64,000 nucleotides of DNA from Candidatus Woesearchaeota archaeon (GCA_964623495.1 CAZUTV010000002.1:18789-82788); one strand, 5' to 3'; shown: positions 1 to 10,649, counted from the stretch's first letter. Notes: generated by a model from the letters alone, not told the origin. Program-made: numbers and translations.

Positions 1-628
1 TTTTAAGCCCATTAACCGAAAACCCATACTTCTTGGCCAGCTGAGTTAAAGAAATCTTTTGATTTAAGAAATCTTGAAATATCTCTTGCACAAGATAAGA
101 ATTTTCTGAGGGAATCAGTTTTTTCCCTTCAAATTTATATCCAAAGGGGGCTCTTGTTATCGGGCTTCCATCTCTGGCTTTTTTATCCATTGAAAATTTT
201 GTTCTTTCGCTGGTAACGTTTCTCTCAAACTCTGCAAAGGCGCTGATTATATGAAACATCAGTTTTCCAGAAGCAGAGGTTGTCTCTATCTTATCTTGAA
301 GAGAAACAAAATCAATCCCCCACTCTTTTATTCTTTCAATGGTTTCTAGCAAGTCTTTCAAGCTTCTAGAGAATCTGTCTAATTTATAGATAAAAATGGC
401 CTGAAATTTTCTTGATTCTGCGTCGGCTAACAAACTGACCATCGCCGGTCTGTGCTTAATATCTTTTGCTGATTTTCCTTCATCTTTGTATAATTTATAG
501 AGTTCATAACCAAGTGCCTTAACATAATTTTCTAGTGCCTCCTGTTGTGCGGCAAGAGAAATTCCTTGTTTTGCTTGTTCTTCTGTGCTAACTCGGGTGT
601 AAATCGCTGCGAGGGGTTTGTTTGTCAT
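1..628 (-). CDS. Large serine recombinase, N-terminal part (gene runs off the window start; C-terminus missing)
   Basis: Reverse-strand translation from the ATG at 628-626 gives MTNKPLAAIYTRVSTEEQAKQGISLAAQQEAL...DEGKSAKDIKHRPAMVSLL...IYKLDRFSRSLKDLLETIERIKEWGIDFVSLQDKIETTSASGKLMFHIISAFAEFERNVTSERTKFSMDKKARDGSPITRAPFGYKFEGKKLIPSENSYLVQEIFQDF. This is a canonical resolvase/invertase catalytic domain (RVST catalytic Ser, DxGxSA, RP, LDRxxRS, AEFER), followed by the PFGY...IF start of the 'recombinase' domain typical of large serine integrases. The start overlaps the upstream gene's stop (ATGA). The ORF track omits it because it is open at the window edge. Confidence 0.85.
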   Translation of the reverse strand, partial: MTNKPLAAIYTRVSTEEQAKQGISLAAQQEALENYVKALGYELYKLYKDEGKSAKDIKHRPAMVSLLADAESRKFQAIFIYKLDRFSRSLKDLLETIERIKEWGIDFVSLQDKIETTSASGKLMFHIISAFAEFERNVTSERTKFSMDKKARDGSPITRAPFGYKFEGKKLIPSENSYLVQEIFQDFLNQKISLTQLAKKYGFSVNGLK

Positions 629-1128
629 TTTAACTTCCTGCCTAAAAAACTCTCTAGATGTTTAATTTTGCTTCCTATTTTCATTTTATCGTCTTGTGTT
701 CTTAGGATTGCAATCTTGTAAATCTGTTCCAATTGATTTAAAGAAAGAATGTTTACTTTTATTCCGTAAAAATCTATTTTCTTAACTTCCTTGAAGAAAG
801 GATGACTATTGTTTTCGTATTGTTTTTCCGTCTTGTCAATTTCCACTTTTAATATGCCTTTTTTTACAATAAAACCATAAGGATAATGCTTAAACTTTAT
901 TTTACTCTTTTCTAATTGTTCGGCAATTTTTGAAAAGTACCTTGGCTGAACTAAAAGATCTATGTCATTAACTTTTAAATTTTGATCTTTAGTGTGATAA
1001 AAAGGTGAAAAACTACCATAAATTACTGGATTTGACTTGCATTTTTTGCAAACCTCAATAACTTGCTTTGCAAAGAGTATCAATTCCTTAAAATGCCCTT
1101 TGTTTTTCGGATAAAGATAGAGAGTCAT
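625..1128 (-). CDS. Minimal nucleotidyltransferase (Pol-beta superfamily; architecture and size resemble small antibiotic nucleotidyltransferases of the Lnu(A)/ANT(2'') type)
   Basis: 167 aa; the IYGSFSPFY...VNDIDLLV segment is a G[GS]x(9-13)DxD nucleotidyltransferase motif, followed by a short helical tail. Start and stop are coupled by 4-nt overlaps to both neighbours. Confidence 0.6.
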   Translation of the reverse strand: MTLYLYPKNKGHFKELILFAKQVIEVCKKCKSNPVIYGSFSPFYHTKDQNLKVNDIDLLVQPRYFSKIAEQLEKSKIKFKHYPYGFIVKKGILKVEIDKTEKQYENNSHPFFKEVKKIDFYGIKVNILSLNQLEQIYKIAILRTQDDKMKIGSKIKHLESFLGRKLK

Positions 1129-1562
1129 TTTAACACTTTTTCATAATAATAAAGACTTTCCCCCCTTCCAAAGTTTAACTTTTGTTTTAATTTTTGCATT
1201 TTTTTGTTAGAGGTTTGAACAAAACCGGTAAAATATTTTATTTTGTTTTTCCTCGCAATTTTTTCAGCCTCTTTAATTAAACTTGAAGCTATTCCCTTAT
1301 TTCTGTGGGCAGGATTAACATAGACATCATTAATAATTACCTGGGATACAGAAATCAAAATATGGGCGATGATAAAGCCAACCATCTCTTTTTCTTCTTC
1401 TGCGATTAAAACAAAATTTTCTTTGGTTTTAGTTAAAACGCTCTTTACCCACACTTTATCGTAATCCCCAATCTCAAAATTCCCCCCCTGCAGCTCTTTT
1501 GTACTAATCAGAATTCTGAACAATTCTTTTAAATCCGATATTTTTCCTTTGCGAATTTTCAT
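1125..1562 (-). CDS. GNAT-family N-acetyltransferase
   Basis: 145 aa; the acetyl-CoA motif A region is VYVNPAHRNKGIASSLIKEAEKIA (R-x-x-G-x-A). The size is typical of GNATs. Confidence 0.7.
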   Translation of the reverse strand: MKIRKGKISDLKELFRILISTKELQGGNFEIGDYDKVWVKSVLTKTKENFVLIAEEEKEMVGFIIAHILISVSQVIINDVYVNPAHRNKGIASSLIKEAEKIARKNKIKYFTGFVQTSNKKMQKLKQKLNFGRGESLYYYEKVLK

Positions 1563-2221
1563 ATCTCCACCCCCAACTTCAACAGCTGTTCAAACAGCTG
1601 TTTGTTGTCTTTGAACAGAATTGTTCTCATACCTAGCTTCTTAGCGGGAGTTAGGTTCCAGGGTTGGTTGTCTATAAAAATACAATTTTGGGCAGGGGTT
1701 TTCAGCTTTTTTAGGGCTAGCCCGTAAATCTCCGGATTTGGCTTTCTTAATCCAACATCACAGGAAATAAACACCTTATCAAATTTCTCCATATACTTTC
1801 TTTTTACCATTGCTTCTTTGCTTAGCCACCATTGGTCTGAAAGAACAGCTATTTTGTAGCCTTGTTTTTTAATCTTAAAGGCCAACCTATAGAGTTTTTT
1901 GTTTTGTTTAAAGTTCTTTCTATAAGATTTAATAACCAGCCATCTAAGATACCCTGGATGTACTTGGAGTTTTCTAGCCAGGGTTAAGACGGTTGTTTGC
2001 TCTGAAACCTTTCCCAGATAAGCATCAACATAGGTTGTTTCAATAGTGTCAAACCACTGATCTAAAGAAATCCTCAGTTTTTTGGCGATTCTTTCATGAA
2101 CCCCTAGGCTAGAAGGATGTTTTCCTAATTTTATGGTGGTTGGGTTTTTTGGCAAGACCAAAACCCCTCCTATGTCGAAGATTACTGTCTTTACCGGGTT
2201 TCTTGTTTCTTTTTTTAACAT
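1559..2221 (-). CDS. HAD-superfamily hydrolase (subfamily IA-like; variant motif I FDIGGVL)
   Basis: 220 aa. The N-terminal VIFDIGGVL is a HAD motif I variant (DxG instead of DxD, as in epoxide-hydrolase N-terminal phosphatase-like HADs). It has a K-containing motif III and a C-terminal IFIDN motif IV. Confidence 0.6.
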   Translation of the reverse strand: MLKKETRNPVKTVIFDIGGVLVLPKNPTTIKLGKHPSSLGVHERIAKKLRISLDQWFDTIETTYVDAYLGKVSEQTTVLTLARKLQVHPGYLRWLVIKSYRKNFKQNKKLYRLAFKIKKQGYKIAVLSDQWWLSKEAMVKRKYMEKFDKVFISCDVGLRKPNPEIYGLALKKLKTPAQNCIFIDNQPWNLTPAKKLGMRTILFKDNKQLFEQLLKLGVEI

Positions 2222-2246
2222 TATTGCCTCTTTTACGTATTAAAAA

Positions 2247-2301
2247 CGTGCACTAAGGTTTATAAAGGTATGGTTCACGGGGTTTAAGGACACCCTTAGT
2301 G
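2247..2301. promoter_or_regulatory. Copy 1 of the GTGCACT(A/T)AGGTT motif, with its inverted partner CCCTTAGTG 38 nt away (split palindrome); lies in the promoter region of the HAD-GNAT-NTase-recombinase operon
   Basis: cgtgcactaaggttta at 2247-2262 and cccttagtg at 2293-2301 are reverse complements (CACTAAGG / CCTTAGTG). Confidence 0.45.
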
Positions 2302-2346
2302 AAGGGTTTTAAGCTTAATTTTGTGATTTTTGGGCAAAGGAAAGCC

Positions 2347-2700
2347 CTAAGGAGGGTGTTGAGAAAAATCAGTTAAATCTAAAACCTCAAAGCCTTGATC
2401 TTTTAACCTTTCTACAAGGGTGGTGGCTTTTCCTAGGGCAATGTCATGCAATCTCTATTTTGAAATAGACTCATCTGACAAAATATCTAAAACCCCTTCT
2501 GTTAGAGAAAAAACAACATATTGGCCATTTAAATGTTGAAGATGATATAAGGGGTCTGTTCTTGAAGGAGCGTGATTTAATATTGTTTGATGGGGAAGCT
2601 GAGGATAAGTGGATTCAAACAATTGAATAGCATAACTAACAAGAGCCTTACCAGACAAACATCCGGGAATTTCTCGAATAATAACCCTCTTAAAAGACAT
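2347..2700 (-). pseudogene. Hypothetical protein interrupted by an in-frame TAG (81-aa ORF continues in frame for 35 more codons after the stop)
   Basis: ORF 2455..2700 ends ...DESISK-TAG, then continues in the same frame as RLHDIALGKATTLVERLKDQGFEVLDLTDFSQHPP to a second stop at 2347-2349. TGA and TAA clearly act as stops in neighbouring genes, so recoding is unlikely. Confidence 0.3.
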
Positions 2701-2786
2701 TAAAGATAGATTGTGAATTATTTTTTAAAAATTTCTGTGATTCTCTGTAATTTTGTCCCAAATTTTTAGCAAATTTTTTGAGGCCG

Positions 2787-2810
2787 GGCGAAGATTGTGC
2801 ACTTAGGTTA
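2787..2810. promoter_or_regulatory. Near-perfect 19-bp palindrome CACTTAGGT-T-ACCTAAGTG (copy 2 of the GTGCACTTAGGTTA motif), 70 nt upstream of ORF 2882
   Basis: Positions 2790-2808 read cacttaggttacctaagtg. The two 9-bp arms are exact reverse complements around a single central T. Confidence 0.55.
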
Positions 2811-2881
2811 CCTAAGTGAAAATTGGCAGGTATTTTTAAGGTTTTGGATAGGCTTTTAAGGCGGTTTTTGGTAAAATAAGT

Positions 2882-3127
2882 ATGATAATTGAAGCATTAA
2901 TCCTTGCATGTATAGCCTGGTTTTTTGTAGCTTCTAGCTTATTTTTTAAGGTTTATTGGAAAGAGTGTGTTAAAACAAAAGTGAAGAAGATGAGTATGGG
3001 ATTTGGATCACTGCCTTATTTTTTAATGGTAAAGCAGGATAGGGGACTGAGTGTATGGGTTATGCAAGCATGGACAGCATTTGTTTTTCTATTATTCTTG
3101 ATTATTGTGAGAACAATAAGTGTATAA
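2882..3127 (+). CDS. Small hydrophobic protein (two predicted TM helices), hypothetical
   Basis: 81-aa ORF with two hydrophobic stretches; unusually Trp/Cys/Phe-rich. It is flanked on both sides by copies of the palindromic motif. Coding status is uncertain. Confidence 0.3.
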   Translation: MIIEALILACIAWFFVASSLFFKVYWKECVKTKVKKMSMGFGSLPYFLMVKQDRGLSVWVMQAWTAFVFLLFLIIVRTISV

Positions 3128-3128
3128 T

Positions 3129-3154
3129 CGTGCACTTAGGTTAACTTAGTGAAC
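3129..3154. repeat. Copy 3 of the GTGCACTTAGGTTA motif (imperfect palindrome CACTTAGGTTAACTTAGTG)
   Basis: cgtgcacttaggttaacttagtgaac starts 1 nt after the stop of ORF 2882..3127. Its 14-nt core is identical to copy 2. Confidence 0.5.
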
Positions 3155-3159
3155 AAAAG

Positions 3160-3760
3160 ATAATGGCTCGTAGAGGATAGAAATTCTTATTAATGCCCCC
3201 CCATAGGAAGATTATGTCGGAAATAGATCTTGCTAAAAGAGCAACAATACAATTTAAAACGCCTTTAACTGCCAAAGAATTAGAGAGAGATTTTGGGGGG
3301 AATTGGTTGTGAACAAGATTGTGAAGTGGAGTATACCTGGATACAGAGAATTAGGATAGATCCAACAACAAGCACAACCCCTTTTAGGAGAACCAGTCTC
3401 CAAACAAGCCAAGGAGAATTTAGTTCGAGAGGTTCACGACTATTTGTCAGTCTGCCTTTCGATCTCCAAGTAGGATATATTCAAGACTCACAAGACCCGG
3501 ACGATAGCAGGTATACAAGCCTTAGGTTTTTCATGGCTCCAGGAACTAGCGAAAGAGAAGTGCCTGCACCACAACTAGAGTTCATTGATGCTGCGAGAGA
3601 CTATTTCTGCAGATCACACTATTGGAAAAAAGAAGACACTATTCCAGAAGATTCTGACCCATAAGCCATAACCCATGATCTAAGCGGGCTAAATCTCGGT
3701 TTAAACTCCAAAAGATGTGTCGTAAAGGATGTTTGAACCCATGTTTTTCAATTTTATCGG
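3160..3760. other. GC-enriched, non-coding-looking segment (candidate structured RNA or decayed foreign DNA)
   Basis: Visibly higher G+C than surrounding DNA. The only long ORF (3293..3664) encodes a T/S/R/P/D-rich product unlike the K/I/L/E-rich proteome here. The reverse strand is full of stops. No RNase P, SRP or tRNA signatures were recognised by eye. Confidence 0.25.
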
Positions 3761-3788
3761 CGGGAAAAATCCTTGATTGATGTAATCT

Positions 3789-4352
3789 TAAACAGGTGTT
3801 TGAAGATGGTTTTTTAGCCTTACTGGGTGTTTAGGGGTGTTTTTTGGTGTTTTAAACAGGTGTTTATCTGTTAAATTACCTCTTTAAACGGGTTTTTTGG
3901 GGTATTTTTTGAGTAAAAAGAAGATTTTCTATGTCTCTTAATTAATGTAATAAAAAGGAGGAAAACCCACCTTTGTCCTCGTAAAAACAAAAGGTTTTTA
4001 AATAAGGAATATTTAGAAGAATTATGTTTGGGTGGTTATTTGGAAAAAAAGAGGCAAAACGTGTCGAGGAAGACACTAAAAGAGGTTTTGAGGGAGTCAA
4101 AAAAGACATAACTGCCTTGACGGGGTGGATCAAACACCTTAATTCTGAGCTAACAATGCAAAAAAAAGAACTTGAAGACATAAAGGTTTTTTTGTCGTCG
4201 GTTCAAGAAGACGTTGAGGGTGTCAAAAACGTGATCTCAATAATAACAGAGGTTAAACCAAATAAGGTGTTTAAAACAACCAAACGGGTGTTTAAGAAAC
4301 AAACGGGTGTTTATCCTGTTCAAACAGGTGTTCAAACGGGTGTTCAAACACC
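3789..4352. repeat. Array of AAAC(A/G)GGTGTT(T/C) near-palindromic repeats (at least 9 copies), partly intergenic and partly inside ORF 4024..4647
   Basis: Intergenic copies lie at about 3789-3801, 3825-3832, 3834-3853, 3853-3865 and 3885-3898. In-ORF copies lie at 4264-4273, 4282-4293, 4300-4311, 4321-4332 and 4333-4352; the last three form a 12-nt tandem repeat GTTCAAAC(A/G)GGT encoding VQTGVQTGVQT. Confidence 0.6.
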
Positions 4353-4647
4353 AAATTTAAGCCAATTTTCAGTTACTGAAAGAGCTATTTTGTTAATACT
4401 ATTAAATACTGACATGAAATTAAGTTACGAAGATTTGGGGGCTATGCTCGGAAAAGAAAAATCAACTATTAGGGGGCAGATAAATAGCATAAGGCAAAAG
4501 GGAGAAAACTTGATTGAAGAGGTCATGGAAAAGAACGGGAAAAAGAGGGTGTTTGTGCCTGAAGAAATGAAAGAAAAAATACTAAAAAAATCGAAAGTGA
4601 GAGTTGAAAAGAGTAAAAAAGGGGAAAAATCTGGGGAAAACCTATAA
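4024..4647 (+). CDS. Coiled-coil / low-complexity repeat linker / C-terminal winged-helix DNA-binding protein (paralog of 4909..5625)
   Basis: 207 aa with three parts. The N-terminal ~60 aa are heptad-like (ITALTGWIKHLNSELTMQKKELEDIKVFLSSVQEDVEGVKNV). The linker contains TGVQTGVQT repeats. The C-terminal wHTH-like segment is SVTERAILLILLNTDMKLSYEDLGAMLGKEKSTIRGQINSIRQKGENLIEEV, followed by a basic tail. Confidence 0.6.
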   Translation: MFGWLFGKKEAKRVEEDTKRGFEGVKKDITALTGWIKHLNSELTMQKKELEDIKVFLSSVQEDVEGVKNVISIITEVKPNKVFKTTKRVFKKQTGVYPVQTGVQTGVQTPNLSQFSVTERAILLILLNTDMKLSYEDLGAMLGKEKSTIRGQINSIRQKGENLIEEVMEKNGKKRVFVPEEMKEKILKKSKVRVEKSKKGEKSGENL

Positions 4648-4682
4648 AAAATGAAATTTCGAGGTTTAAAAGAGGTAAAAAA

Positions 4683-4892
4683 GACAAAAGTGAGAGTTAA
4701 ATTCGGGTTTTTTTTGTAAAATTTGTTTGAAAAGGGGGCATAAAAACAAAAAGTGAGAAAAAATAAGGAATTCGGGGGAGGAATAAGAAAGAGAAAGAAA
4801 TAAATTTTAAGATTTTAGGGCTTAAAAGGCCAAAAATGAGGGAAATAGAGAAAAAATAAAAGAAGAACAAAGAGACAAAAGTAAAAATTCGG
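4683..4892. repeat. Purine-rich divergent intergenic region with three iteron-like copies of ACAAAAGT(G/A)A(G/A)A...AATTCGG
   Basis: Copies read gacaaaagtgagagttaaattcggg (4683-4707), aacaaaaagtgagaaaaaataaggaattcggggg (4745-4778) and gagacaaaagtaaaaattcgg (4872-4892). They sit between the divergent paralogs 4024..4647 (+) and 4909..5625 (-). Confidence 0.5.
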
Positions 4893-4908
4893 TTAAACGA
4901 AAAAACAC

Positions 4909-5625
4909 TTATAAATCTCTTAGTTGGATTAAAACCGATAGAGGCGCTATTTTTTTAAGGTTTTTTGAGATAGAAAGGTGAATTTGTTTGTTATTTACCT
5001 TTATTTTGGATATAGGGATGCCTTTATTTATAAGTTTCCCGACGTAATCCCTGATCGAGCTTTCTGTGAGGTTTAATCTTTGGGCCAATACCCGGTAATC
5101 TATTTCCTTGCCTTCCTCGTCAAGCTGATAGATCAGAGAAAACACCGCCCATTCCTGATCTGTGAGATTCTTGAATTTTAAGCGGATTTCTTTTTTTAGA
5201 GAATCTAAAGAATCTAGAATCTCTGCGGCGTCCTCAATGGGATTTTCTAACGATTTTTGGGGATTTTGGGTCTGTTGGTTTGTCTGTTGGTTTGTCTGTC
5301 TGTCTGTTGGAACCCCTTCATTTCCTATGGAGATCCCTTGTTTTTCGTCTTTTTGGGGCTTAAAAAGGAGATTATCTGCTGGAATAAAGGGCATGTTTGT
5401 GGATACTTTTTGAGGGTGTGTCGAAGAGCTATCTTGGACCGGGGGCAAAGCCAAGGGGGCGATTTCTTGAAATTTTTTAGAAACTTTCAAAAGACCTAGG
5501 GATTCTGTGACTTCTTTTAGCTTGCTGTTAATCTCTATCATACATTGGGTAATAGAGGTTAGGGCTTCTTTTAAAGAATCTATGTCTTGCTTCACTTTTT
5601 GGAATGCTTCTTTTATAGCGTCCAT
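4909..5625 (-). CDS. Coiled-coil / repeat linker / C-terminal winged-helix protein (paralog of 4024..4647)
   Basis: 238 aa. The N-terminal coiled coil reads MDAIKEAFQKVKQDIDSLKEALTSITQCMIEINSKLKEVTESL. The linker has QTNQQTNQQTQ, encoded by a 12-nt tandem repeat at 5268-5310. The C-terminal wHTH reads LTDQEWAVFSLIYQLDEEGKEIDYRVLAQRLNLTESSIRDYVGKLINKGI. Domain order is the same as in 4024..4647. Confidence 0.6.
   Translation of the reverse strand: MDAIKEAFQKVKQDIDSLKEALTSITQCMIEINSKLKEVTESLGLLKVSKKFQEIAPLALPPVQDSSSTHPQKVSTNMPFIPADNLLFKPQKDEKQGISIGNEGVPTDRQTNQQTNQQTQNPQKSLENPIEDAAEILDSLDSLKKEIRLKFKNLTDQEWAVFSLIYQLDEEGKEIDYRVLAQRLNLTESSIRDYVGKLINKGIPISKIKVNNKQIHLSISKNLKKIAPLSVLIQLRDL
5268..5310. 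repeat. Tandem 12-nt repeat (CAAACCAACAGA on the coding strand) inside ORF 4909..5625
   Basis: gtctgttggtttgtctgttggtttgtctgtctgtctgttgg; it encodes the QTNQQTNQQTQ linker. Confidence 0.6.
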
Positions 5626-5664
5626 AAAAAAAATATTTGAAGGAGGTATAAAAATTTTAAGGTG

Positions 5665-5943
5665 TTAAAGAAGATGGTTTTGTCTTTGCTTATAAAGGGT
5701 ATAGGTGTGGTCTGTTAGGGCCCACCTGGATCTTTTGGAATAAACAACCCCTTTTGGGCTTTTCTTAACCTCTAAAACAAAATTTTTCTTTTTTAAAGAG
5801 AGAAGGAGGGATTTCACAAATTCTTCATCCCTAGCAATCTCTTGGGCTATTGTAAAGGTAAATGCTGACTTAGGGGAAATAGAATAAAGGTAAGCAAGAA
5901 TTTGCTCTAAAATCTTGTCTCTTTTTTTGTCGGAAATCTTCAT
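5665..5943 (-). CDS. Small winged-helix (MarR/PadR-like) transcriptional regulator
   Basis: 92 aa; KILEQILAYLY...IAQEIARDEEFVKSLLLSLKKKNFVLEV...GVVYSKRSRWALT fits an HTH plus a beta-wing with a conserved Trp. Confidence 0.55.
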   Translation of the reverse strand: MKISDKKRDKILEQILAYLYSISPKSAFTFTIAQEIARDEEFVKSLLLSLKKKNFVLEVKKSPKGVVYSKRSRWALTDHTYTLYKQRQNHLL

Positions 5944-5984
5944 GAATCATTAAGCACTTGGGGATTTAAAACCCTTTAGAAAGA

Positions 5985-6395
5985 TTATTTGTCTTGCTTT
6001 TTAAATGTGGGCATTGGAATATGTAAAGGCAATCCCATATCCTCTTCTAATTGCAGGGCCTTCAGGCTTGATTTTTTTATAATTATGTTAAAGAGGGTAA
6101 TATTAAACTCTTCTGGAATCTTTTTATCTTTCCAGTTTTTTAAGACTTCTTTAGAAAGTTTAGGGTCCACTGCAAGAAGCAGGCTGCCGCTTATCTCCAG
6201 CTTTGCAAAACCCGGATCATAGGAGATAACAAAAGAGTATTTAATCCCTAAAAGTTCCTCTCTTAACTTAAAGACATCTGAATCAACGCTTTCAATTTCA
6301 AGAACATTGATCTGTGTGTTGATCTTAAGGTTTTCTGGCTTATTTGAAAGCTTTTCAACACTTATCCTATCAAAATTAAAACCAATTATTTTCAT
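5985..6395 (-). CDS. Hypothetical protein
   Basis: 136-aa ORF with a K/I/E-rich composition typical of this genome; no motif recognised. Confidence 0.45.
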   Translation of the reverse strand: MKIIGFNFDRISVEKLSNKPENLKINTQINVLEIESVDSDVFKLREELLGIKYSFVISYDPGFAKLEISGSLLLAVDPKLSKEVLKNWKDKKIPEEFNITLFNIIIKKSSLKALQLEEDMGLPLHIPMPTFKKQDK

Positions 6396-6505
6396 TTTAT
6401 TAAAATCGAAGGAGTATTTTTAAAGATTTGTGTTTTTTGTGAAAAGAAAAAGAGCAGATGCTTGTCTTAAATAAAAAATACTCTCATTAAGGAATATGTA
6501 GAAAA

Positions 6506-6766
6506 TTATATCAAATCCTCTTCAGAAACAATGATAAAGTCACCAATAGCGATTATGGCACTATAAGGCACAAGTAAGTCCCCGGAAGAAGTCTTTTCAA
6601 GGTTAAGGTTTCTGGTATATAAGGTTGAGTCGCGAATAACAAGGTTAATAAGCTCGCCAGAACGAGTTTCAAAGGTTATGTCCCTAACAAATCCAAGCCT
6701 TTTTCCCTCTTTTGTGACTATCATTTTACCGACAAGGGCATTGAATGGGTTTTTGTTTTCTTGCAT
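6506..6766 (-). CDS. PRC-barrel domain protein
   Basis: 86 aa; LVGKMIVTKEGKRLGFVRDITFETRSGELINLVI followed by LVPYSAIIAIGDFIIV matches the archaeal PRC-barrel pattern. Confidence 0.5.
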   Translation of the reverse strand: MQENKNPFNALVGKMIVTKEGKRLGFVRDITFETRSGELINLVIRDSTLYTRNLNLEKTSSGDLLVPYSAIIAIGDFIIVSEEDLI

Positions 6767-6879
6767 GGTAATTTTAGAGGTAATTCATTTATAAACTTTT
6801 CTGTAAATGTATATAGATTTAAGGAGATATAGGTCATAACACTAAGAGGTTAATAAGAAAATTTGAAAAGAGGGAAAAC

Positions 6880-7290
6880 ACACCCACCCCTTCTTTTCTT
6901 ATAGAAACCTTTATAAAGAAAAATTTAACTTTTTTATGTTTTTATTTTATTTTTATGATTTTCTATAGTATAGTATATATATTATTTATTTTTATTAAAA
7001 AATATAAAAGATATTGATTTATTTGAGCACATTAACTTATTTTAAAAATGATTTAATTAATTTAGAAGGTATTAAATAATTGGGAAAGGCAAAAAGAACT
7101 CCAGCTAAACCAAAATAAGCTTTTCCACTAGAAATTTAGGTGTTTTTCTTTTTGAGTGGTTATGATACTTTAAATAAACCCCCCTTTATTTTTCGTTAAT
7201 AATTTTCCAAAGGAAAAGTTTTCCATCGGAAATAATAGTGTGGGTAATGGGCTTTTTATAAGGCTTTCACACCAAAATTTTTAAAGGGGT
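6880..7290. promoter_or_regulatory. Predicted chromosomal replication origin (oriC): AT-rich unwinding region plus three ORB-like elements upstream of orc1/cdc6
   Basis: An extremely AT-rich tract lies at about 6900-7070. Three ORB-like elements of form TTCCA-N3-GGAAA follow: TTCCACTAGAAA (7123-7134), TTCCAAAGGAAA (7205-7216) and TTCCATCGGAAA (7221-7232). The last is followed by a G-rich GTGTGGGTAATGGG. cdc6 starts at 7300. Confidence 0.6.
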
Positions 7291-7299
7291 TGAAATAAG

Positions 7300-8550
7300 A
7301 TGAAAAAGGATATAGATCATATTTTTGATTCTTTTGATAAGGAATCTCTGTTTAGAGACAAATCCCTATTACAGATTAACCATATTCCTAGCGAGATAGT
7401 TCATAGAGACGATCAAATTAAACAAATTGCGTCTATACTTGCTCCTGTTTTAAGAGGGGAGAAAACAAGCAATTTATTCCTTTATGGCAACACCGGTACA
7501 GGAAAGACCCTTTCTGTTCTATTTGTCAAAGATCATTTAATTAAAAGAGCGGATAAGAACGACGTTAAACTTAAAATAGAATATCTTAACTGCAAACTTA
7601 AGAAGGTTTCTGATACAGAGTACAGGATTCTTGCAGAGCTTATTAAGAAGTTGGGAAGTGAGGTGCCTCAAACAGGGCTGCCAACAGAAGCGGTTTATAG
7701 TAAATTTATTGATGTTGTTGATAAAGATAAACAGCTTGTTGTGCTTATTTTAGATGAGATAGACCAGGCCGTGAAGAAGATCTCGAGTGATTTCCTTTAC
7801 AATTTAACAAGATTAAATTCAGAACTCTCTAAATCTCAAATCTGTCTTGTTGGAATAAGCAACGATTTAACGTTTTTAGAGGAGCTTGATCCAAGGGTGA
7901 AGAGTTCGCTTTCAGAGGAAGAGATAGTCTTTTCCCCCTATAATGCACTCCAACTTCAAGACATCTTAACAAAGAGGGCCGAGAAAGCCTTTAAAGAGGG
8001 GGTTGTACAGCAGGGCGTTATTGCCAAATGTGCGGCTTATGCTGCCAGAGAGCATGGAGATGCGAGAAGAGCATTGGATCTGCTGAGGATAGCAGGAGAA
8101 CTGGCTGAGAGAGAGACTTCTAAAAAAATAACTTTAAAGAATATTGATGACGCCAATCAAAAAATTGAAAGAGATAAGATCTTAGAATCTATAAAAATTC
8201 AGCCCAAACAATTTCAGCTTGTTTTATACGCGATCATTAAACTTCAAGAAGCAAGAAAAAAAGGTGGGGGTGGGCAGAAGACCCTTAATTCTGGGACGAA
8301 AGGAGAGCCCATTTTTACTGGCGATGTTTTTGATTCATACCAGCAGTTATGCCTGCAGAACAAGTTAGAGGTTTTGACACAGAGAAGGGTTGGAGATATT
8401 TTGCAGGATTTTGATATGCTCGGAATAATCAGTGTGAGGGTGATTTCAAAAGGGAGAGGGGGAAGAATGAGGGAAATTAAACTAGCTATCTCTGATCCAA
8501 TTGTTGGCAAGGCAAAAGAGATCATTCAAGAATCATTAAATTACCATTAA
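7300..8550 (+). CDS. cdc6: Orc1/Cdc6 replication initiator (AAA+ ATPase with C-terminal winged helix)
   Basis: 416 aa. Walker A is LYGNTGTGKT, Walker B is LILDEID, sensor and wH regions are present, and the gene sits beside ORB elements. Confidence 0.92.
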   Translation: MKKDIDHIFDSFDKESLFRDKSLLQINHIPSEIVHRDDQIKQIASILAPVLRGEKTSNLFLYGNTGTGKTLSVLFVKDHLIKRADKNDVKLKIEYLNCKLKKVSDTEYRILAELIKKLGSEVPQTGLPTEAVYSKFIDVVDKDKQLVVLILDEIDQAVKKISSDFLYNLTRLNSELSKSQICLVGISNDLTFLEELDPRVKSSLSEEEIVFSPYNALQLQDILTKRAEKAFKEGVVQQGVIAKCAAYAAREHGDARRALDLLRIAGELAERETSKKITLKNIDDANQKIERDKILESIKIQPKQFQLVLYAIIKLQEARKKGGGGQKTLNSGTKGEPIFTGDVFDSYQQLCLQNKLEVLTQRRVGDILQDFDMLGIISVRVISKGRGGRMREIKLAISDPIVGKAKEIIQESLNYH

Positions 8551-8608
8551 ATAGAGGAAAAATGAAAGAGGAGTATGGCAAAAAATTCATGCTCCATTTG
8601 CAAATAAA

Positions 8609-8633
8609 TAGGGATGAAAATGAAAGATGAGTG
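8609..8633 (+). promoter_or_regulatory. Conserved leader element AGGGA(TG)AAAATGAAAGATGAGTGA (copy A), overlapping the start of the HIT gene
   Basis: Nearly identical to 39198-39219. It contains the mini-ORF ATG AAA GAT GAG TGA (MKDE-stop), whose stop overlaps the annotated start ATGAGTGA. Confidence 0.45.
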
Positions 8634-9070
8634 ACGAAAAAAAATGTGTGTTTTGTGACATAAAAGAGAGCATTAATACCCGGATAATTGAAGAAACAAA
8701 AAACACTTATACTATTTTGAGCAATCCTGCATTAATGAAAGGACATTGCCTTGTGATCCCAAAAAAACATGTTGAAAGTTTATCTGAGCTAAATGACGAT
8801 GTTAGGCAAGAGCTTTTTGAACAGGTAGTTAGGATGCAGTCCTTATTGATAAGGAAATTCATGGGCTGTGATATAAGGCAGAATTACCGGCCTTTCCAGA
8901 AACAAGACGATCTTAAGATAAATCATCTTTATATCCATCTTCAACCGAGAGAGCTTTATGATGAACTTTATGAAAAGTGCATGATCTATGAAAAAGATGT
9001 TTTTAAAAAACTGAGCCAGGAGCAGTTAGATGAAGATAAAGAATTTGTTTTGAGAGAAGTGAAAGTATAA
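8627..9070 (+). CDS. HIT-family (histidine triad) hydrolase
   Basis: 147 aa. The N-terminal CVFCDI...GHCLVIPKKH plus a triad region NHLYIHLQPR (variant of HxHxHxx). Confidence 0.65.
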   Translation: MSDEKKCVFCDIKESINTRIIEETKNTYTILSNPALMKGHCLVIPKKHVESLSELNDDVRQELFEQVVRMQSLLIRKFMGCDIRQNYRPFQKQDDLKINHLYIHLQPRELYDELYEKCMIYEKDVFKKLSQEQLDEDKEFVLREVKV

Positions 9071-9104
9071 TCGGCCTTTTTAAAAGAAAGTTCCCAAAAC
9101 CAAA

Positions 9105-10649
9105 ATGGAATCAAAAGAGATATTGAAATTTCTGATGCAGCAAGGTTTGTTAGTGGATAAAGAACTCCTAAAGATCTTTAGTGATGAAGAAGATCTTGAT
9201 TCTGTTAAACTTATTGTTGAAAAACTTAAAAATTCTACACACCAAAAGATAATCACCAAAGAGGTTTTAGAAAGAAACAAAGATCAGGTGGGAGTTATAC
9301 TCTCTTCATTACCCCAAGAAAATCAGGAAAAGCTAGAAAGTTTGAAAATCAAGCTTGGACTGACTTTGGAGATTTCCAAGGAAGTCATTTTAAAGAAAGA
9401 GGAAGAAAAGCCAATTTTGAATGAGGGTTCTGTGAGAGTCCAGGCTATGAATTATCCTTTAGGGAAGAAGTTTGAGGTCAAAGACTTTGTGGCTTATTTT
9501 AGGAATCGTTTTGCAGAAATTAGGGGGGTTTTGCAAGATCATTCTGTGTTGGACAATTTAGTTTCTATAAACAAGATTTCCGGTAACAGACAAGGAATTT
9601 CTGTTATTGGGTTAGTTTATGCTAAGGCAGTCACAAAAAACCAGAACATAATTTTTGAGATAGAAGATCTAACTGGAAAGATAAAGGTGTTGGTGAATAA
9701 GAGCAAAGAGGAGTTGCATAAGAAGGCTTTAGAGATTCCTCTTGATGCAGTTGTTGGATTTAAGTGTGCTGGAAATCGGGAAATACTTTTTGTTAATGAT
9801 ATTGTTTTTCCGGAGGCTGTTTTGCTTGAAAGAAAGAAGTCCCCTGTTGAAGAATGTGCAATTTTTATTAGTGATGTGCACATGGGGAGCAAGAACTTTA
9901 TGCGCGATGGATTTATGAGGCTTATGGAGTACCTAAATAATCACCCAGAATCCAAGAAGATAAAATATCTTTTTATTGTGGGAGATCTGATTACCGGGGT
10001 TGGAAATTATCCCGATCAGGAGAAAGATCTCGCAATTGTCAATTTAGAAGATCAATATACTTCTGCTGCAGAGCTTCTTGGAAAAATCCGAAAAGATATC
10101 AAAATTATCATCTCCCCCGGAAATCATGAAGGAGTTAGGTTAATGGAACCACAACCTTTATTTGATGAGAAATATGCTTGGGCACTGTATGACCTTGAAA
10201 ATGTGTTGCTTGTAGGGAATCCCGCAATAGTGAATATAGGTGCTGTTCCGGGGTTTAATGGATTTAATGTTTTACTTTACCATGGATTTTCGTATCCTTT
10301 CTTTGCAGATAGTGTTTCGAGGCTTAAAGAAGAGAAGGCAATGAACTCTCCCGAAAAAATAATGACTTATTTGTTAAAATTTAGGCATCTTGCCCCAACT
10401 CACGGCAGCGTGCAATATTTTCCTGGAGAAACCGACTGCCACTTTATTAGAGACATTCCAGATATCTTTGTTTCTGGGCATACACACAAGAGCGCAGTGA
10501 CTTACTATAATAATGTCCTGGTTATCTCTGGATCTTCTTGGGAAACCTTGACCCCTTATCAAGAAAAGTTTGGGAATACCCCAGACCATTGTAAAGTTCC
10601 TTTAATAAATTTGAAGACGCGCGAGGTGAAAATACTTGATTTTGAGTAA
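9105..10649 (+). CDS. DNA polymerase II (PolD) small subunit DP1 (Mre11-like phosphoesterase/exonuclease subunit)
   Basis: 514 aa. The calcineurin-like metallophosphatase motifs are DVHMG, FIVGDLITGVG, SPGNHEG and SGHTHK; there is an N-terminal OB-like region. Confidence 0.9.
   Translation: MESKEILKFLMQQGLLVDKELLKIFSDEEDLDSVKLIVEKLKNSTHQKIITKEVLERNKDQVGVILSSLPQENQEKLESLKIKLGLTLEISKEVILKKEEEKPILNEGSVRVQAMNYPLGKKFEVKDFVAYFRNRFAEIRGVLQDHSVLDNLVSINKISGNRQGISVIGLVYAKAVTKNQNIIFEIEDLTGKIKVLVNKSKEELHKKALEIPLDAVVGFKCAGNREILFVNDIVFPEAVLLERKKSPVEECAIFISDVHMGSKNFMRDGFMRLMEYLNNHPESKKIKYLFIVGDLITGVGNYPDQEKDLAIVNLEDQYTSAAELLGKIRKDIKIIISPGNHEGVRLMEPQPLFDEKYAWALYDLENVLLVGNPAIVNIGAVPGFNGFNVLLYHGFSYPFFADSVSRLKEEKAMNSPEKIMTYLLKFRHLAPTHGSVQYFPGETDCHFIRDIPDIFVSGHTHKSAVTYYNNVLVISGSSWETLTPYQEKFGNTPDHCKVPLINLKTREVKILDFE

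What the first reader, a model, noticed from the sequence alone, without database searches (positions are those of the whole stretch)
1..2221. Four-gene translationally coupled operon: HAD hydrolase - GNAT acetyltransferase - minimal nucleotidyltransferase - large serine recombinase
All three junctions are 4-nt ATGA-type start/stop overlaps (1559-1562, 1125-1128, 625-628), so the enzymes are co-expressed with the recombinase. GNAT acetyltransferases and small Pol-beta-fold NTases are the two classic scaffolds of antibiotic-modifying enzymes (AAC; ANT/Lnu). Their linkage to a recombinase looks like a mobile resistance-like cassette, which is unusual in a host-dependent archaeon. Alternatively, GNAT plus NTase could be an addiction/toxin-like pair that stabilises the element.
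Basis: partly seen in the sequence, partly recalled or inferred. Interest (0 to 1): 0.55.

Follow-up and report, generated by a model that had tools for sequence, protein, structure and literature searches.

The report
Resident archaeal recombinase operon with passenger enzymes
The four overlapping genes are real, but they are not a mobile resistance cassette: three small accessory enzymes share an operon with a short, highly conserved serine recombinase that sits at the same chromosomal spot in many Woesearchaeota/Pacearchaeota-type DPANN archaea, and that recombinase is the interesting part.

Summary
Observation confirmed. Four minus-strand ORFs (HAD 1559-2221, GNAT 1125-1562, NTase-fold 625-1128, serine recombinase 628->1) are joined by three ATGA overlaps.

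Interpretation mostly not supported. The recombinase is not "large". Its full length is 258 aa (catalytic domain plus the 'Recombinase' domain, no zinc ribbon or coiled coil), and it is intact.

It belongs to a family that is 62-84% identical across 60+ species of Woesearchaeota/Pacearchaeota/Nanoarchaeota. The gene always lies between the PolD-Cdc6-PRC block and the rpS9-rpL13-rpL18e operon. No mobile-element genes flank it and there are no viral relatives.

A conserved ~60-nt element lies just upstream of the operon (window 2242-2306). It holds a palindrome with a variable 2-bp centre, a TATA box and a half-site. The genes between it and the recombinase vary by species: none, HAD, HAD-NTase, HAD-GNAT, an APH-type kinase and others.

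GNAT and NTase reach no resistance-family threshold. Their homologues occur in housekeeping operons, and there is no toxin-antitoxin signature.

In some relatives an XerA-like tyrosine recombinase, usually with a dif-like site nearby, replaces the serine catalytic domain at this locus. I read the locus as a resident resolvase-type module carrying passenger enzymes. A role in chromosome-dimer resolution is possible but unproven.

The parts
1..628 (-). First 209 codons of a 258-aa serine recombinase. It has a Resolvase catalytic domain (residues 7-154, nucleophile Ser14 in YTRVST) and the start of the 'Recombinase' (RD) domain. The last 49 codons lie left of the window.
   Evidence: Translation is. 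The full-length identical protein P0329 came from the cluster look-up. Pfam gives PF00239 at 2.6e-41 and PF07508 at 1.7e-07. R12, S14, D84, R85 and R88 are invariant in 32 homologues. The closest solved catalytic domain is the TP901-1 integrase.
625..1128 (-). 167-aa minimal Pol-beta-fold nucleotidyltransferase. It has G38-S39, D55-x-D57 and D98. It is a passenger gene present at this locus in only a few lineages.
   Evidence: The family alignment is. Members hit NTP_transf_5 (32 of 63) and Aminoglyc_resit (12 of 63). The profile's best PDB match is TM1012 at 9e-5. The AlphaFold model has pLDDT 95.6. Foldseek gives TM1012, ANT(2'')-Ia, LnuA and MenT1 at TM 0.54-0.65.
1125..1562 (-). 145-aa GNAT acetyltransferase with an acetyl-CoA motif (R-N-K-G-I-A). 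It is a lineage-specific insertion.
   Evidence: Pfam Acetyltransf_1 scores 4.8e-15. All NCBIfam hits are below cut-off: rimI 44.5 against 86.4, AAC(6') group E 37 against 140. It is absent from all 68 species loci. It is present at this locus in L082, as HAD-GNAT-recombinase.
1559..2221 (-). 220-aa HAD-IA (variant 3) hydrolase and first gene of the operon. It is the commonest neighbour of the recombinase.
   Evidence: Pfam hits are. TIGR01509 HAD-SF-IA-v3 scores 61.7 bits against a cut-off of 29.4. HAD lies next to the recombinase, upstream or downstream, in about a third of related loci.
2242..2306 (-). Conserved promoter and site element 'S1'. On the + strand it holds the half-site GTGCACTAAGG at 2248-2258, the TATA box TTTATAAA at 2259-2266, GGTTCACG at 2272-2279, and the imperfect palindrome TTTAAGGA-CA-CCCTTAGT at 2283-2300, which has a 2-bp centre. 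A GAGG Shine-Dalgarno-like motif lies 7 nt before the HAD ATG.
   Evidence: DNA-level conservation across loci is shown. The nhmmer profile finds one full copy per locus in 45 loci, always on the sense strand upstream of the first gene of the recombinase operon. It finds none in the XerA loci. There is one full copy in the 64-kb window, E 2e-18.
2795..2820 (.). Compact palindrome GTGCACTTAGGT-T-ACCTAAGTG. It has the same half-site as S1 and lies between two divergent small ORFs.
   Evidence: All five CACTWAGG octamers in the 64-kb window lie within 2251-3140.
3128..3150 (.). Second compact palindrome, GTGCACTTAGGT-T-AACTTAGTG.
2307..4023 (.). Gene-poor variable gap between the conserved p207 gene and the operon. 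Its small ORFs have no counterparts in relatives, and in relatives the equivalent gap holds different small genes.
   Evidence: There is no DNA similarity to other loci apart from the motif elements. ORF clustering gave 379 ORFs in 230 clusters, 200 of them singletons. L016 versus L023 shows homology breaking at the elements. Rfam finds nothing here.
4024..10649 (.). Conserved syntenic left flank. It contains p207 (4024-4647 +), p238 wHTH (4909-5625 -), p92 (5665-5943 -), p136 (5985-6395 -), PRC barrel (6506-6766 -), a 530-bp intergenic region, Cdc6/Orc1 (7300-8550 +), HIT (8627-9070 +) and the PolD small subunit (9105-10649 +).
   Evidence: Pfam hits are. The same order is seen in about 40 species loci.

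Best explanation
This is a chromosomal operon of a Woesearchaeota/Pacearchaeota-type DPANN archaeon. It lies about 5-7 kb from cdc6/orc1 and polD.

Shown:
- The last gene encodes a 258-aa serine recombinase. It is built like the first half of a large serine recombinase (catalytic domain plus RD) but lacks the zinc-ribbon/coiled-coil domain.
- This gene lies at the same locus in 60+ species, between p207 and the rpS9 operon. It is conserved about as well as Cdc6 and better than the neighbouring ribosomal proteins.
- One conserved ~60-nt element (S1) always lies in front of the transcription unit that ends with, or consists of, the recombinase gene.
- The genes between S1 and the recombinase differ from genome to genome. 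HAD is the commonest. NTase is found in a few lineages. GNAT is found only in this lineage and one relative.

Inferred:
- S1 is both the operon promoter and the recombinase's own binding or crossover site, analogous to the res site in front of tnpR. The recombinase would therefore repress its own operon and act on a resident chromosomal site.
- Because it lacks the domain that large serine integrases use to tell attP from attB, it should work like a resolvase or invertase on identical sites rather than integrate a mobile element.
- The most likely cellular roles are resolution of chromosome multimers, recombination that turns over the neighbouring genes, or both.
- HAD, GNAT and NTase are passenger small-molecule or house-cleaning enzymes. 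They are co-expressed because they sit in this slot, not because they form a resistance or addiction module.
For: Protein and family:
- The top 120 family members are all 254-266 aa and 78-94% identical.
- The catalytic residues are invariant.
- Foldseek matches the SPbeta large serine integrase (535 aa) and the RD of 4KIS, at half the length.
- The closest solved catalytic domain is the TP901-1 integrase.

Fixed locus and conservation:
- 68 species loci show the fixed gene order.
- Mean pairwise identity is 0.74 for the recombinase against 0.74 for Cdc6, 0.67 for rpS9, 0.61 for rpL13 and 0.58 for PolD DP1.
- rpS9 follows the recombinase gene within 10 to about 3,200 bp, leaving no room for a sizeable element.
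- There are no IMG/VR relatives.

The S1 element:
- There is one S1 per locus in 45 loci, on the sense strand. It is directly upstream of the recombinase where there is no cargo, or upstream of the first cargo gene.
- The S1 palindrome arms are conserved while the central dinucleotide varies: CA, TG, GG or GA.
- Type-B recombinases carry the perfect palindrome ACTTAGGG-CA-CCCTAAGT upstream.
- The 43%-identical recombinase of L067 carries a different perfect palindrome, GATAAGGG-AA-CCCTTATC, at the same place. The site therefore co-varies with the recombinase.
- S1 is absent from every locus where an XerA-like gene replaces the serine catalytic domain.

Variable neighbours:
- ORF clustering shows hypervariable content around the recombinase.
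- In L016 versus L023, homology breaks at the elements.
- Cargo in other genomes includes an APH-type kinase, a methyltransferase, NUDIX, MGMT-like and HNH/VRR-NUC proteins.

The passengers:
- GNAT and NTase are below all resistance-family cut-offs.
- NTase homologues occur in unrelated housekeeping operons.
- Codon usage of all four genes is typical for the window.
Against: - No experiment links the recombinase to S1. The half-sites could instead be operators of the adjacent conserved wHTH proteins p207 or p238.
- The compact palindromes at 2795-2820 and 3128-3150 have an odd (1-nt) centre. That suits a transcription factor or an accessory site, not a crossover site.
- Pairwise identities of the recombinase correlate poorly with those of flanking core genes (rho 0.05-0.30, against 0.44-0.81 among core genes). 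Its history at this locus therefore includes type replacement, not purely vertical descent.
- The related loci were retrieved through conserved peptide words of the recombinase. This inflates its apparent conservation.
- dif-like sites lie next to S1 in some serine-recombinase loci, and XerA-like genes co-occur with the serine recombinase in L054 and L065. The serine enzyme need not be the dimer resolvase.
- NTase and GNAT are AT-richer than average (GC z = -2.6 and -1.7). This is compatible with later acquisition.
- The recombinase model is of low confidence in the catalytic half (pLDDT 66 overall).
- The DNA left of the window could not be retrieved.
Confidence: 0.6

Rival explanations
1. 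Mobile resistance-like cassette. A large serine recombinase moves a unit that carries drug-modifying GNAT (AAC-like) and NTase (ANT/Lnu-like) enzymes.
For: The NTase fold is closest to TM1012, ANT(2'')-Ia and LnuA. The GNAT has weak sub-threshold hits to AAC families. The slot in other genomes can hold an APH-family kinase. Gene content next to the recombinase is variable. NTase and GNAT are AT-richer than average.
Against: The recombinase is 258 aa and lacks the integrase zinc-ribbon/coiled-coil domain. It sits at a fixed locus in 60+ species between core genes. It has no viral relatives. No AAC, ANT or Lnu model reaches its cut-off. NTase homologues lie in housekeeping operons. The junctions are ATGA overlaps, which leave no room for att sites.
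Confidence: 0.04
2. GNAT plus NTase form an addiction or toxin-antitoxin pair that stabilises the locus.
For: The NTase fold also resembles the MenT1 toxin (TM 0.65). GNAT toxins exist (my own knowledge). GNAT and NTase homologues are also co-clustered in an unrelated context, L080.
Against: NTase occurs without GNAT in L001, L004, L005, L038 and L083. GNAT occurs without NTase in L082. There is no RHH/DUF1778, HEPN or MenA-like partner. PADLOC gives no hit. In L080 a methyltransferase lies between the two genes.
Confidence: 0.03
3. Integron-like platform. The resident serine recombinase captures and exchanges small gene cassettes at the repeated ACTWAGG elements. HAD, GNAT and NTase would be captured cassettes.
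For: The region around the recombinase is hypervariable while its flanks are strictly syntenic. Two to four repeated elements lie about 450-550 bp apart, each about 30 nt before a small ORF. Repeats of 27 nt at 100% identity occur within one locus, and in L016 versus L023 non-homologous segments are bounded by the elements. The cargo is a mix of small enzymes.
Against: Cargo genes inside the operon are joined by ATGA overlaps with no element between them. Variable genes downstream of the recombinase are not flanked by the motif. The compact palindromes have an odd centre. Exchange could equally arise from homologous recombination anchored in the conserved elements.
Confidence: 0.15
4. Locus-specific selfish module. 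Recombinase or nuclease genes (serine recombinase types A and B, HNH-RD, XerA) repeatedly invade and replace each other at one target site next to rpS9. They would confer no cellular function.
For: Recombinase type is incongruent with the flanking core genes. Catalytic modules are swapped on a constant RD domain. The window's RD is 80-84% identical to the RD of the HNH-RD proteins in L067-L070, but only 48-55% identical to the RD of type-B recombinases. The HNH-RD fusions resemble homing endonucleases.
Against: Purifying selection is very strong, with catalytic residues invariant and 78-94% identity over hundreds of clusters. No empty locus was seen among the syntenic loci retrieved. The gene is coupled to a conserved autoregulatory-looking promoter.
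Confidence: 0.13

Closest known systems
Large serine recombinases / serine integrases (TP901-1, A118/LI, SPbeta, CcrAB, XisF)
   Same: The catalytic domain is closest to TP901-1 (1.9e-27). The Pfam 'Recombinase' RD domain follows it. The best NCBIfam hits are CcrC, CcrB and XisF over the first ~200 residues only. Foldseek's top hits are SPbeta integrase complexes and the 4KIS RD.
   Different: It is half the length (258 aa against 450-700 aa). It has no zinc-ribbon or coiled-coil domain, which is the part that discriminates att sites and controls direction. It is not associated with a phage, ICE or SCC element. It occupies a fixed chromosomal position across a whole archaeal clade.
Tn3/gamma-delta-type resolvase with a res site overlapping the tnpR promoter; plasmid multimer-resolution systems (Sin, beta, ParA of RK2)
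   Same: A recombinase gene is preceded by a composite site that overlaps its own promoter, made of a palindrome with a 2-bp centre plus further half-sites. There is one full site per locus. The predicted action is on identical sites.
   Different: The DNA-binding domain is an RD rather than a C-terminal HTH_7. The setting is a chromosome, not a transposon or plasmid. Binding, cleavage and autoregulation are all untested.
XerA/dif chromosome dimer resolution of archaea
   Same: In six or seven related genomes an XerA-like tyrosine recombinase occupies the place of the serine catalytic domain (best PDB match 5HXY XerA, 2e-45). An 11-6-11 dif-like site lies just upstream of the XerA operon in L069 and L070; in L072 the site is about 3.4 kb upstream. 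This suggests equivalent recombinase-plus-site modules.
   Different: The catalytic family is unrelated. Mutual exclusivity at genome level was not testable here. dif-like sites also lie beside some serine-recombinase loci. A 2022 review states that no chromosome is known to be resolved by a serine resolvase (PMC8987985).
ANT(2'')-Ia / LnuA / TM1012-type minimal nucleotidyltransferases
   Same: The fold (TM 0.54-0.62), size and GS...DxD...D catalytic signature agree.
   Different: Sequence identity is 12-21%. Pfam PF10706 scores 13.4 bits against a cut-off of 21. There is no NCBIfam resistance model hit. The family consists of about 150 clusters at 50% identity; where a source names the organism it is an archaeon, and the members examined lie in housekeeping contexts.

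Membership tests
Large serine recombinase (serine integrase) | N-terminal resolvase catalytic domain with a Ser nucleophile and the Arg/Asp catalytic set | tested here: met
   PF00239 scores 2.6e-41. R12, S14, D84, R85 and R88 are invariant.
Large serine recombinase (serine integrase) | Recombinase domain (RD, PF07508) after the long alpha-E helix | tested here: met
   PF07508 scores 1.7e-07 over residues 180-250. The RD part of the model has pLDDT 80-89 and aligns to 4KIS.
Large serine recombinase (serine integrase) | C-terminal zinc-ribbon domain with an embedded coiled coil; total length about 450-700 aa | tested here: not met
   The protein ends at residue 258, directly after the RD. All of the top 120 homologues are 239-266 aa.
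Large serine recombinase (serine integrase) | Encoded by a mobile element (phage, ICE, SCC) with attL/attR at the element ends | tested here: not met
   The gene lies at a fixed locus between core genes in 60+ species, with rpS9 10 to about 3,200 bp downstream. There are no IMG/VR relatives.
Small serine recombinase (resolvase/invertase) | About 180-200 aa, with a catalytic domain plus a C-terminal HTH_7 DNA-binding domain | tested here: not met
   There is no HTH_7 hit. The C-terminal part is an RD.
Small serine recombinase (resolvase/invertase) | A cognate res/hix-type site next to the gene: dimer-binding palindromes with a 2-bp crossover centre | tested here: inconclusive
   The candidate S1 element is conserved and co-varies with recombinase type. 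There are no binding or cleavage data.
Aminoglycoside N-acetyltransferases (AAC) | Score at or above the curated NCBIfam cut-off of an AAC family | tested here: not met
   Best scores are AAC(6') group E at 37.0 bits (cut-off 140) and AAC(3)-I at 33.8 bits (cut-off 200).
RimI ribosomal-protein acetyltransferase | Score at or above the TIGR01575 cut-off | tested here: not met
   It scores 44.5 bits against a cut-off of 86.4. JGI's label 'RimI-like' is only a name.
ANT(2'')/Lnu nucleotidyltransferases | Sequence membership (Pfam PF10706 or NCBIfam resistance models) | tested here: not met
   PF10706 gives E = 0.084 and 13.4 bits against a cut-off of 21. There is no NCBIfam hit.
ANT(2'')/Lnu nucleotidyltransferases | Minimal Pol-beta NTase fold with three catalytic carboxylates | tested here: met
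   G38, S39, D55, D57 and D98 are nearly invariant. Foldseek matches 4WQK, 5CFU and 4FO1 at TM 0.54-0.62.
ANT(2'')/Lnu nucleotidyltransferases | Modifies aminoglycosides or lincosamides and raises the MIC | not testable with these tools
   This needs heterologous expression and MIC assays.
Toxin-antitoxin pair (GNAT toxin with RHH antitoxin; MenT/AbiEii NTase with its antitoxin) | A cognate antitoxin gene adjacent, with the two genes conserved as a pair | tested here: not met
   No antitoxin-type neighbour is present. Each gene occurs without the other. PADLOC gives no hit.
HAD superfamily, subfamily IA variant 3 | Score at or above the TIGR01509 cut-off | tested here: met
   It scores 61.7 bits against a cut-off of 29.4. 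The more specific TIGR02247 scores 102.8, below its cut-off of 125.4.
Integron | IntI tyrosine integrase with attI and attC-flanked promoterless cassettes | tested here: not met
   The recombinase is of the serine type. The operon genes are joined by ATGA overlaps with no intervening sites. The only resemblance is variable gene content next to a recombinase.

The most novel reading that the evidence does not exclude
The 258-aa serine recombinase and its S1 site form a chromosomal multimer-resolution system. In most Woesearchaeota/Pacearchaeota it would take the place of XerA/dif. It would be the first case of a cellular chromosome resolved by a serine resolvase, sited next to the replication-origin gene cluster and autoregulated through its own site. 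A weaker variant of this reading is that the same module also drives the gene turnover seen in the adjacent slot.
Probability: 0.22. Interest if true: 0.8.

Novelty: new variant of a known kind. Interest (0 to 1): 0.55.

Why it matters
As a resistance cassette the finding would not matter, because that reading fails.

What is there instead has not, as far as I could find, been described. A review of archaeal tyrosine recombinases says archaeal serine recombinases 'were never fully investigated' (PMC8371274).

The object is a large-serine-recombinase-derived enzyme that has lost its integrase-specific domain. It is fixed at one chromosomal locus across a large DPANN clade and is conserved about as well as Cdc6. 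It has its own conserved site, and its position can be taken by XerA, usually with a dif-like site nearby.

If it drives local gene exchange instead, it would be a new kind of gene-capture hotspot in reduced symbiont genomes.

Either way, annotation pipelines and provirus predictors that count any serine recombinase as a mobile-element marker will mis-call this locus in these archaea.

Tried and rejected
Recovering the DNA left of the window:
- Exact 40-mer searches in genome contigs and metagenome contigs found nothing.
- Exact-protein look-ups of the window's NTase and GNAT, and of P0322, were 'not on record'.
- The full recombinase sequence was eventually obtained from a cluster look-up.

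Searches that found nothing:
- tRNA and Rfam scans of the window and of the gap found nothing. The gap is therefore not explained by a known RNA gene.
- PADLOC gave no defence-system hit for the four operon proteins; only p207 had weak, sub-significant CARF matches.
- IMG/VR holds no relatives of the recombinase.
- A wider survey of NTase contexts failed: the alignment was too diverse for pattern design, and the single-protein scan of metagenome contigs confirmed nothing.

Ideas tested and dropped:
- S1 as an RNA hairpin. The W positions of the two half-sites do not co-vary, for example L004 and L007. It looks like a DNA site.
- Origin-recognition-box repeats in the PRC-Cdc6 intergenic region. 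Only AT-rich, low-quality repeats turned up, so this is inconclusive.
- GC and codon-usage tests for recent transfer. NTase and GNAT are AT-richer, but codon usage is ordinary, so the evidence is weak either way.
- Strict vertical inheritance of the recombinase. It is rejected as a complete description because its distances correlate poorly with those of core genes.
- The structure model of the recombinase is reliable only for the RD half.


Full report
**1. The observation**

On the minus strand the window carries ORFs at 1559-2221 (220 aa), 1125-1562 (145 aa) and 625-1128 (167 aa). A fourth ORF starts at 628 and runs off the left edge, giving 209 codons without a stop. The plus strand reads TCAT at 1559-1562, 1125-1128 and 625-628, so all three junctions are ATGA start/stop overlaps.

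Such overlaps occur in 5 of 43 co-directional neighbour pairs in the window. Two of those 5 are in this operon, and its third junction was not in that count because the recombinase ORF runs off the window edge. The coupling is real and tighter than average, but it is not exotic for this compact genome, which is 88% coding.

Pfam confirms Resolvase (1.4e-41), GNAT (4.8e-15) and HAD (about 1e-13). The 167-aa protein has no significant Pfam hit by itself. It belongs to a family of about 150 clusters that keeps G38-S39, D55-x-D57 and D98. Family members hit NTP_transf_5 and the ANT(2'') family. The high-confidence model (pLDDT 95.6) is closest to TM1012, ANT(2'')-Ia, LnuA and MenT1.

**2. The recombinase is neither large nor truncated**

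The window's own contig could not be found by exact DNA or protein look-ups. A cluster look-up returned P0329, a 258-aa protein whose first 209 residues are identical to the window's translation. It comes from a 164.5-kb contig.

It has a Resolvase domain (7-154) and the 'Recombinase' RD domain (180-250), and nothing else. The catalytic residues are invariant in homologues. The closest solved catalytic domain is that of the TP901-1 integrase. A model that is reliable only in its RD half matches large serine integrases of about 535 aa and the RD of 4KIS. It is thus the front half of a large serine recombinase, without the zinc-ribbon/coiled-coil domain.

**3. A fixed and very conserved gene**

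The 120 best database hits are all 239-266 aa (all but one 254-266) and 78-94% identical. Where named, they come from Nanoarchaeota, Pacearchaeota or Woesearchaeota.

A scan of species-representative genomes gave 68 loci. Annotating them with the window's proteins shows one recurrent order:

PolD small subunit - Cdc6/Orc1 - intergenic - PRC barrel - p136 - p92 - p238 (wHTH) - p207 (opposite strand) - a 1-3 kb variable gap - (cargo) - recombinase - (cargo) - rpS9 - rpL13 - rpL18e - RpoD.

The window shows the left part of this order at 1-10649. rpS9 follows the recombinase within 10 to about 3,200 bp.

Across species pairs the recombinase is as conserved as Cdc6 (0.74 against 0.74). It is more conserved than rpS9 (0.67), rpL13 (0.61), rpL18e (0.56), PolD DP1 (0.58) and RpoD (0.53). 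One caveat applies: the loci were retrieved through conserved peptide words of the recombinase, which favours it. L004 was found through the NTase instead, and it shows the same picture: recombinase 83%, NTase 63%, HAD 32%. No relatives exist in IMG/VR.

**4. The enzymes are variable passengers**

- HAD lies next to the recombinase, upstream or downstream, in roughly a third of the loci.
- The NTase occurs at this locus only in the window, L001-L004 and L038.
- The GNAT occurs in none of the 68 species loci. It is present in L082 as HAD-GNAT-recombinase-rpS9.

Elsewhere the NTase family is embedded in PolB-NTase-RsmB, NTase-MsrB and CxxC-GNAT-PEMT/ICMT-NTase.

The GNAT's best curated matches are all far below cut-off: rimI 44.5 against 86.4, and AAC(6') 37 against 140. 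The NTase matches no curated resistance model. PADLOC finds nothing for any of the four operon proteins. GC is lower for NTase (z = -2.6) and GNAT (z = -1.7), but codon usage is ordinary.

It also removes the toxin-antitoxin alternative, since each gene occurs without the other and no antitoxin-type partner exists.

**5. A conserved site in front of the operon**

DNA comparison of window 1-7300 with all loci shows a conserved non-coding block just upstream of the HAD start. A profile of it finds one copy per locus in 45 loci. The copy is always on the sense strand and always in front of the first gene of the unit containing the recombinase. That is directly before the recombinase where there is no cargo, or before HAD or other cargo otherwise. 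The 64-kb window has one full copy, at 2242-2306, with E = 2e-18.

Read toward the genes, the consensus is ACTtAGGG-ca-cCCTaAa ... CGTGaAC ... TTTwTAAA-CCTtAGTGCAC. That is a palindrome with conserved arms and a variable central dinucleotide (CA, TG, GG or GA), then a TATA box, then a half-site between the TATA box and the expected transcription start.

All five CACTWAGG octamers of the 64-kb window lie within 2251-3140. In other loci the octamer is almost entirely confined to the same gap, with 2-4 copies, each about 30 nt before a small ORF.

The more divergent 'type B' recombinases are preceded by the perfect palindrome ACTTAGGG-CA-CCCTAAGT. The 43%-identical recombinase of L067 is preceded by a different perfect palindrome, GATAAGGG-AA-CCCTTATC, at the same place. 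The element is missing from every locus that lacks the serine catalytic domain. The two half-sites do not co-vary as an RNA stem would.

This is the arrangement known from res sites in front of tnpR (established knowledge). I infer that S1 is the recombinase's own site and autoregulatory operator. This is not shown. The neighbouring wHTH proteins p207 and p238 are alternative binders, and the compact palindromes at 2795-2820 and 3128-3150 have an odd centre that does not fit a crossover site.

**6. A hotspot of gene turnover and of catalytic-module swapping**

Between p207 and rpS9, 379 ORFs from 52 loci fall into 230 clusters, of which 200 are singletons. Only the recombinase is constant.

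In the closely related pair L016 and L023, homology stops exactly at the repeated elements and the segments between them are unrelated. Cargo in other genomes includes an APH-family kinase, a SAM methyltransferase, a P-loop kinase, NUDIX, MGMT-like and HNH/VRR-NUC proteins.

Four configurations exist:
- A: recombinase alone, as in the window.
- B: a recombinase with a different RD, plus a second gene next to rpS9 that keeps only an RD.
- C: an XerA-like tyrosine recombinase (5HXY, 2e-45) plus an HNH-RD fusion, with no serine catalytic domain. Seen in L001, L069, L070, L072, L077 and L078.
- D: a divergent serine recombinase plus HNH-RD. Seen in L067 and L068.

The window's RD is 80-84% identical to the RD of the HNH-RD proteins in L067-L070, but only 48-55% identical to the RD of type-B recombinases. 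Its catalytic domain is 73-84% identical to type B. The catalytic module has therefore been exchanged on a constant DNA-binding domain.

In line with this, recombinase distances correlate poorly with those of the flanking core genes: rho 0.05-0.30, against 0.44-0.81 among the core genes themselves.

**7. Relation to XerA/dif**

Some configuration-C loci carry an 11-6-11 dif-like site. It lies just upstream of the XerA operon in L069 and L070, for example L070 TTCGTATAA-TGTATA-TTGTAACAA, and about 3.4 kb upstream in L072. This matches the architecture described for archaeal dif (PMC2958812). It suggests that XerA-plus-dif and serine-recombinase-plus-S1 are alternative modules at one locus.

A 2022 review states that no chromosome is known to be resolved by a serine resolvase (PMC8987985).

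Three observations count against the equivalence:
- dif-like sites also lie just upstream of S1 in several serine-recombinase loci, such as L014, L017, L038 and L061.
- XerA-like genes co-occur with the serine recombinase in L054 and L065.
- Whole genomes could not be examined.

The window itself has no XerA-like gene and no dif-like site in its 64 kb. I put dimer resolution at about 0.2-0.25.

**8. Verdict**

The operon is real. The mobile resistance cassette reading and the addiction-pair reading are not supported.

The best-supported reading is a resident, resolvase-type serine recombinase module with its own site, next to the origin-proximal replication genes. It has a variable slot in which HAD, GNAT and NTase are passengers.

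It is a new variant of a known kind. Interest is moderate. It would be higher if the recombinase proves to be a chromosomal resolvase or a gene-exchange engine.

Noticed in passing
L001:6504-8121; L069:8923-10384; L070:8914-10387; L072, L077, L078: In some relatives the serine catalytic domain is absent. An XerA-like tyrosine recombinase and an HNH-nuclease-RD fusion occupy the same position. In L069 and L070 an 11-6-11 dif-like site lies just upstream of the XerA operon, and in L072 about 3.4 kb upstream (L070: TTCGTATAA TGTATA TTGTAACAA).
   Followed up: partly
L042, L047, L048, L051, L055-L064, L074 (second gene next to rpS9): 'Type B' loci carry a second, intact 131-178-aa gene. It consists of an RD domain preceded by a coiled coil or a degenerate HNH/zinc-finger remnant. 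Its RD is closer to the window's RD than is the RD of the full recombinase in the same locus.
   Followed up: partly
L014:9845-9878, L017:9862-9895, L038:4250-4282, L061:4-37: dif-like sites (AAACTTCGTACAA CCTATA TTGTCACAA) lie 20-50 nt upstream of the S1 element in several loci that carry the serine recombinase and have no XerA within 10 kb. No such site was found in the 64-kb window.
   Followed up: partly
window 1583-1600; L037:2317 and 4194; p207 genes of 12 loci: A perfect 18-bp palindrome, CAGCTGTT-NN-AACAGCTG, lies inside coding sequence. It occurs at the 3' end of HAD (encoding QLFEQL) in the window, L012, L026 and L037, and inside p207 in many loci. This may be a coding coincidence or an embedded DNA site.
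   Followed up: no
window 4024-4647 (+) and 4909-5625 (-): Two convergent, clade-conserved proteins share one build: an N-terminal coiled coil, a low-complexity repeat (VQTGVQTGVQT / QTNQQTNQQT) and a C-terminal winged helix-turn-helix. They are candidate regulators of the ACTWAGG-bearing promoters.
   Followed up: no
window 6767-7299: The 530-bp AT-rich intergenic region between the PRC-barrel gene and cdc6/orc1 contains DNA blocks conserved in 27-42 loci (6801-7000). It is probably the replication origin, but no clear ORB repeats were found.
   Followed up: partly
window 3293-3664: This stretch is GC-richer than its surroundings. It contains only a TTG-start ORF whose translation does not look protein-like and has no homologues in related loci. 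There is no Rfam match. It could be an unannotated RNA or decayed sequence.
   Followed up: partly
window 1-64000: ARAGORN finds no tRNA gene and Rfam finds no family at gathering score anywhere in the 64 kb.
   Followed up: no
L080:7537-9412: Homologues of the GNAT (44% identity) and the NTase (51% identity) recur together in an unrelated cluster, CxxCxxCC protein - GNAT - PEMT/ICMT-like methyltransferase - NTase, with no recombinase. This hints at a functional link between the two enzymes.
   Followed up: partly
L025:8997-9995; L056 (C18 cluster): In two species an APH-family phosphotransferase occupies the slot between S1 and the recombinase. With GNAT and NTase, the slot therefore samples all three classic drug-modifying folds, although none reaches a resistance-family threshold.
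   Followed up: partly
L071 (JAHJUH010000079.1): A contig labelled 'Patescibacteria group bacterium' carries the archaeal PRC-p136-p238-p207-recombinase block and is 99.8% identical to L033. It is probably a mis-binned archaeal contig.
   Followed up: no
window 51762-57995: A 2077-aa ORF lies in the GC-richest part of the window (GC 0.40-0.44). It was not examined.
   Followed up: no
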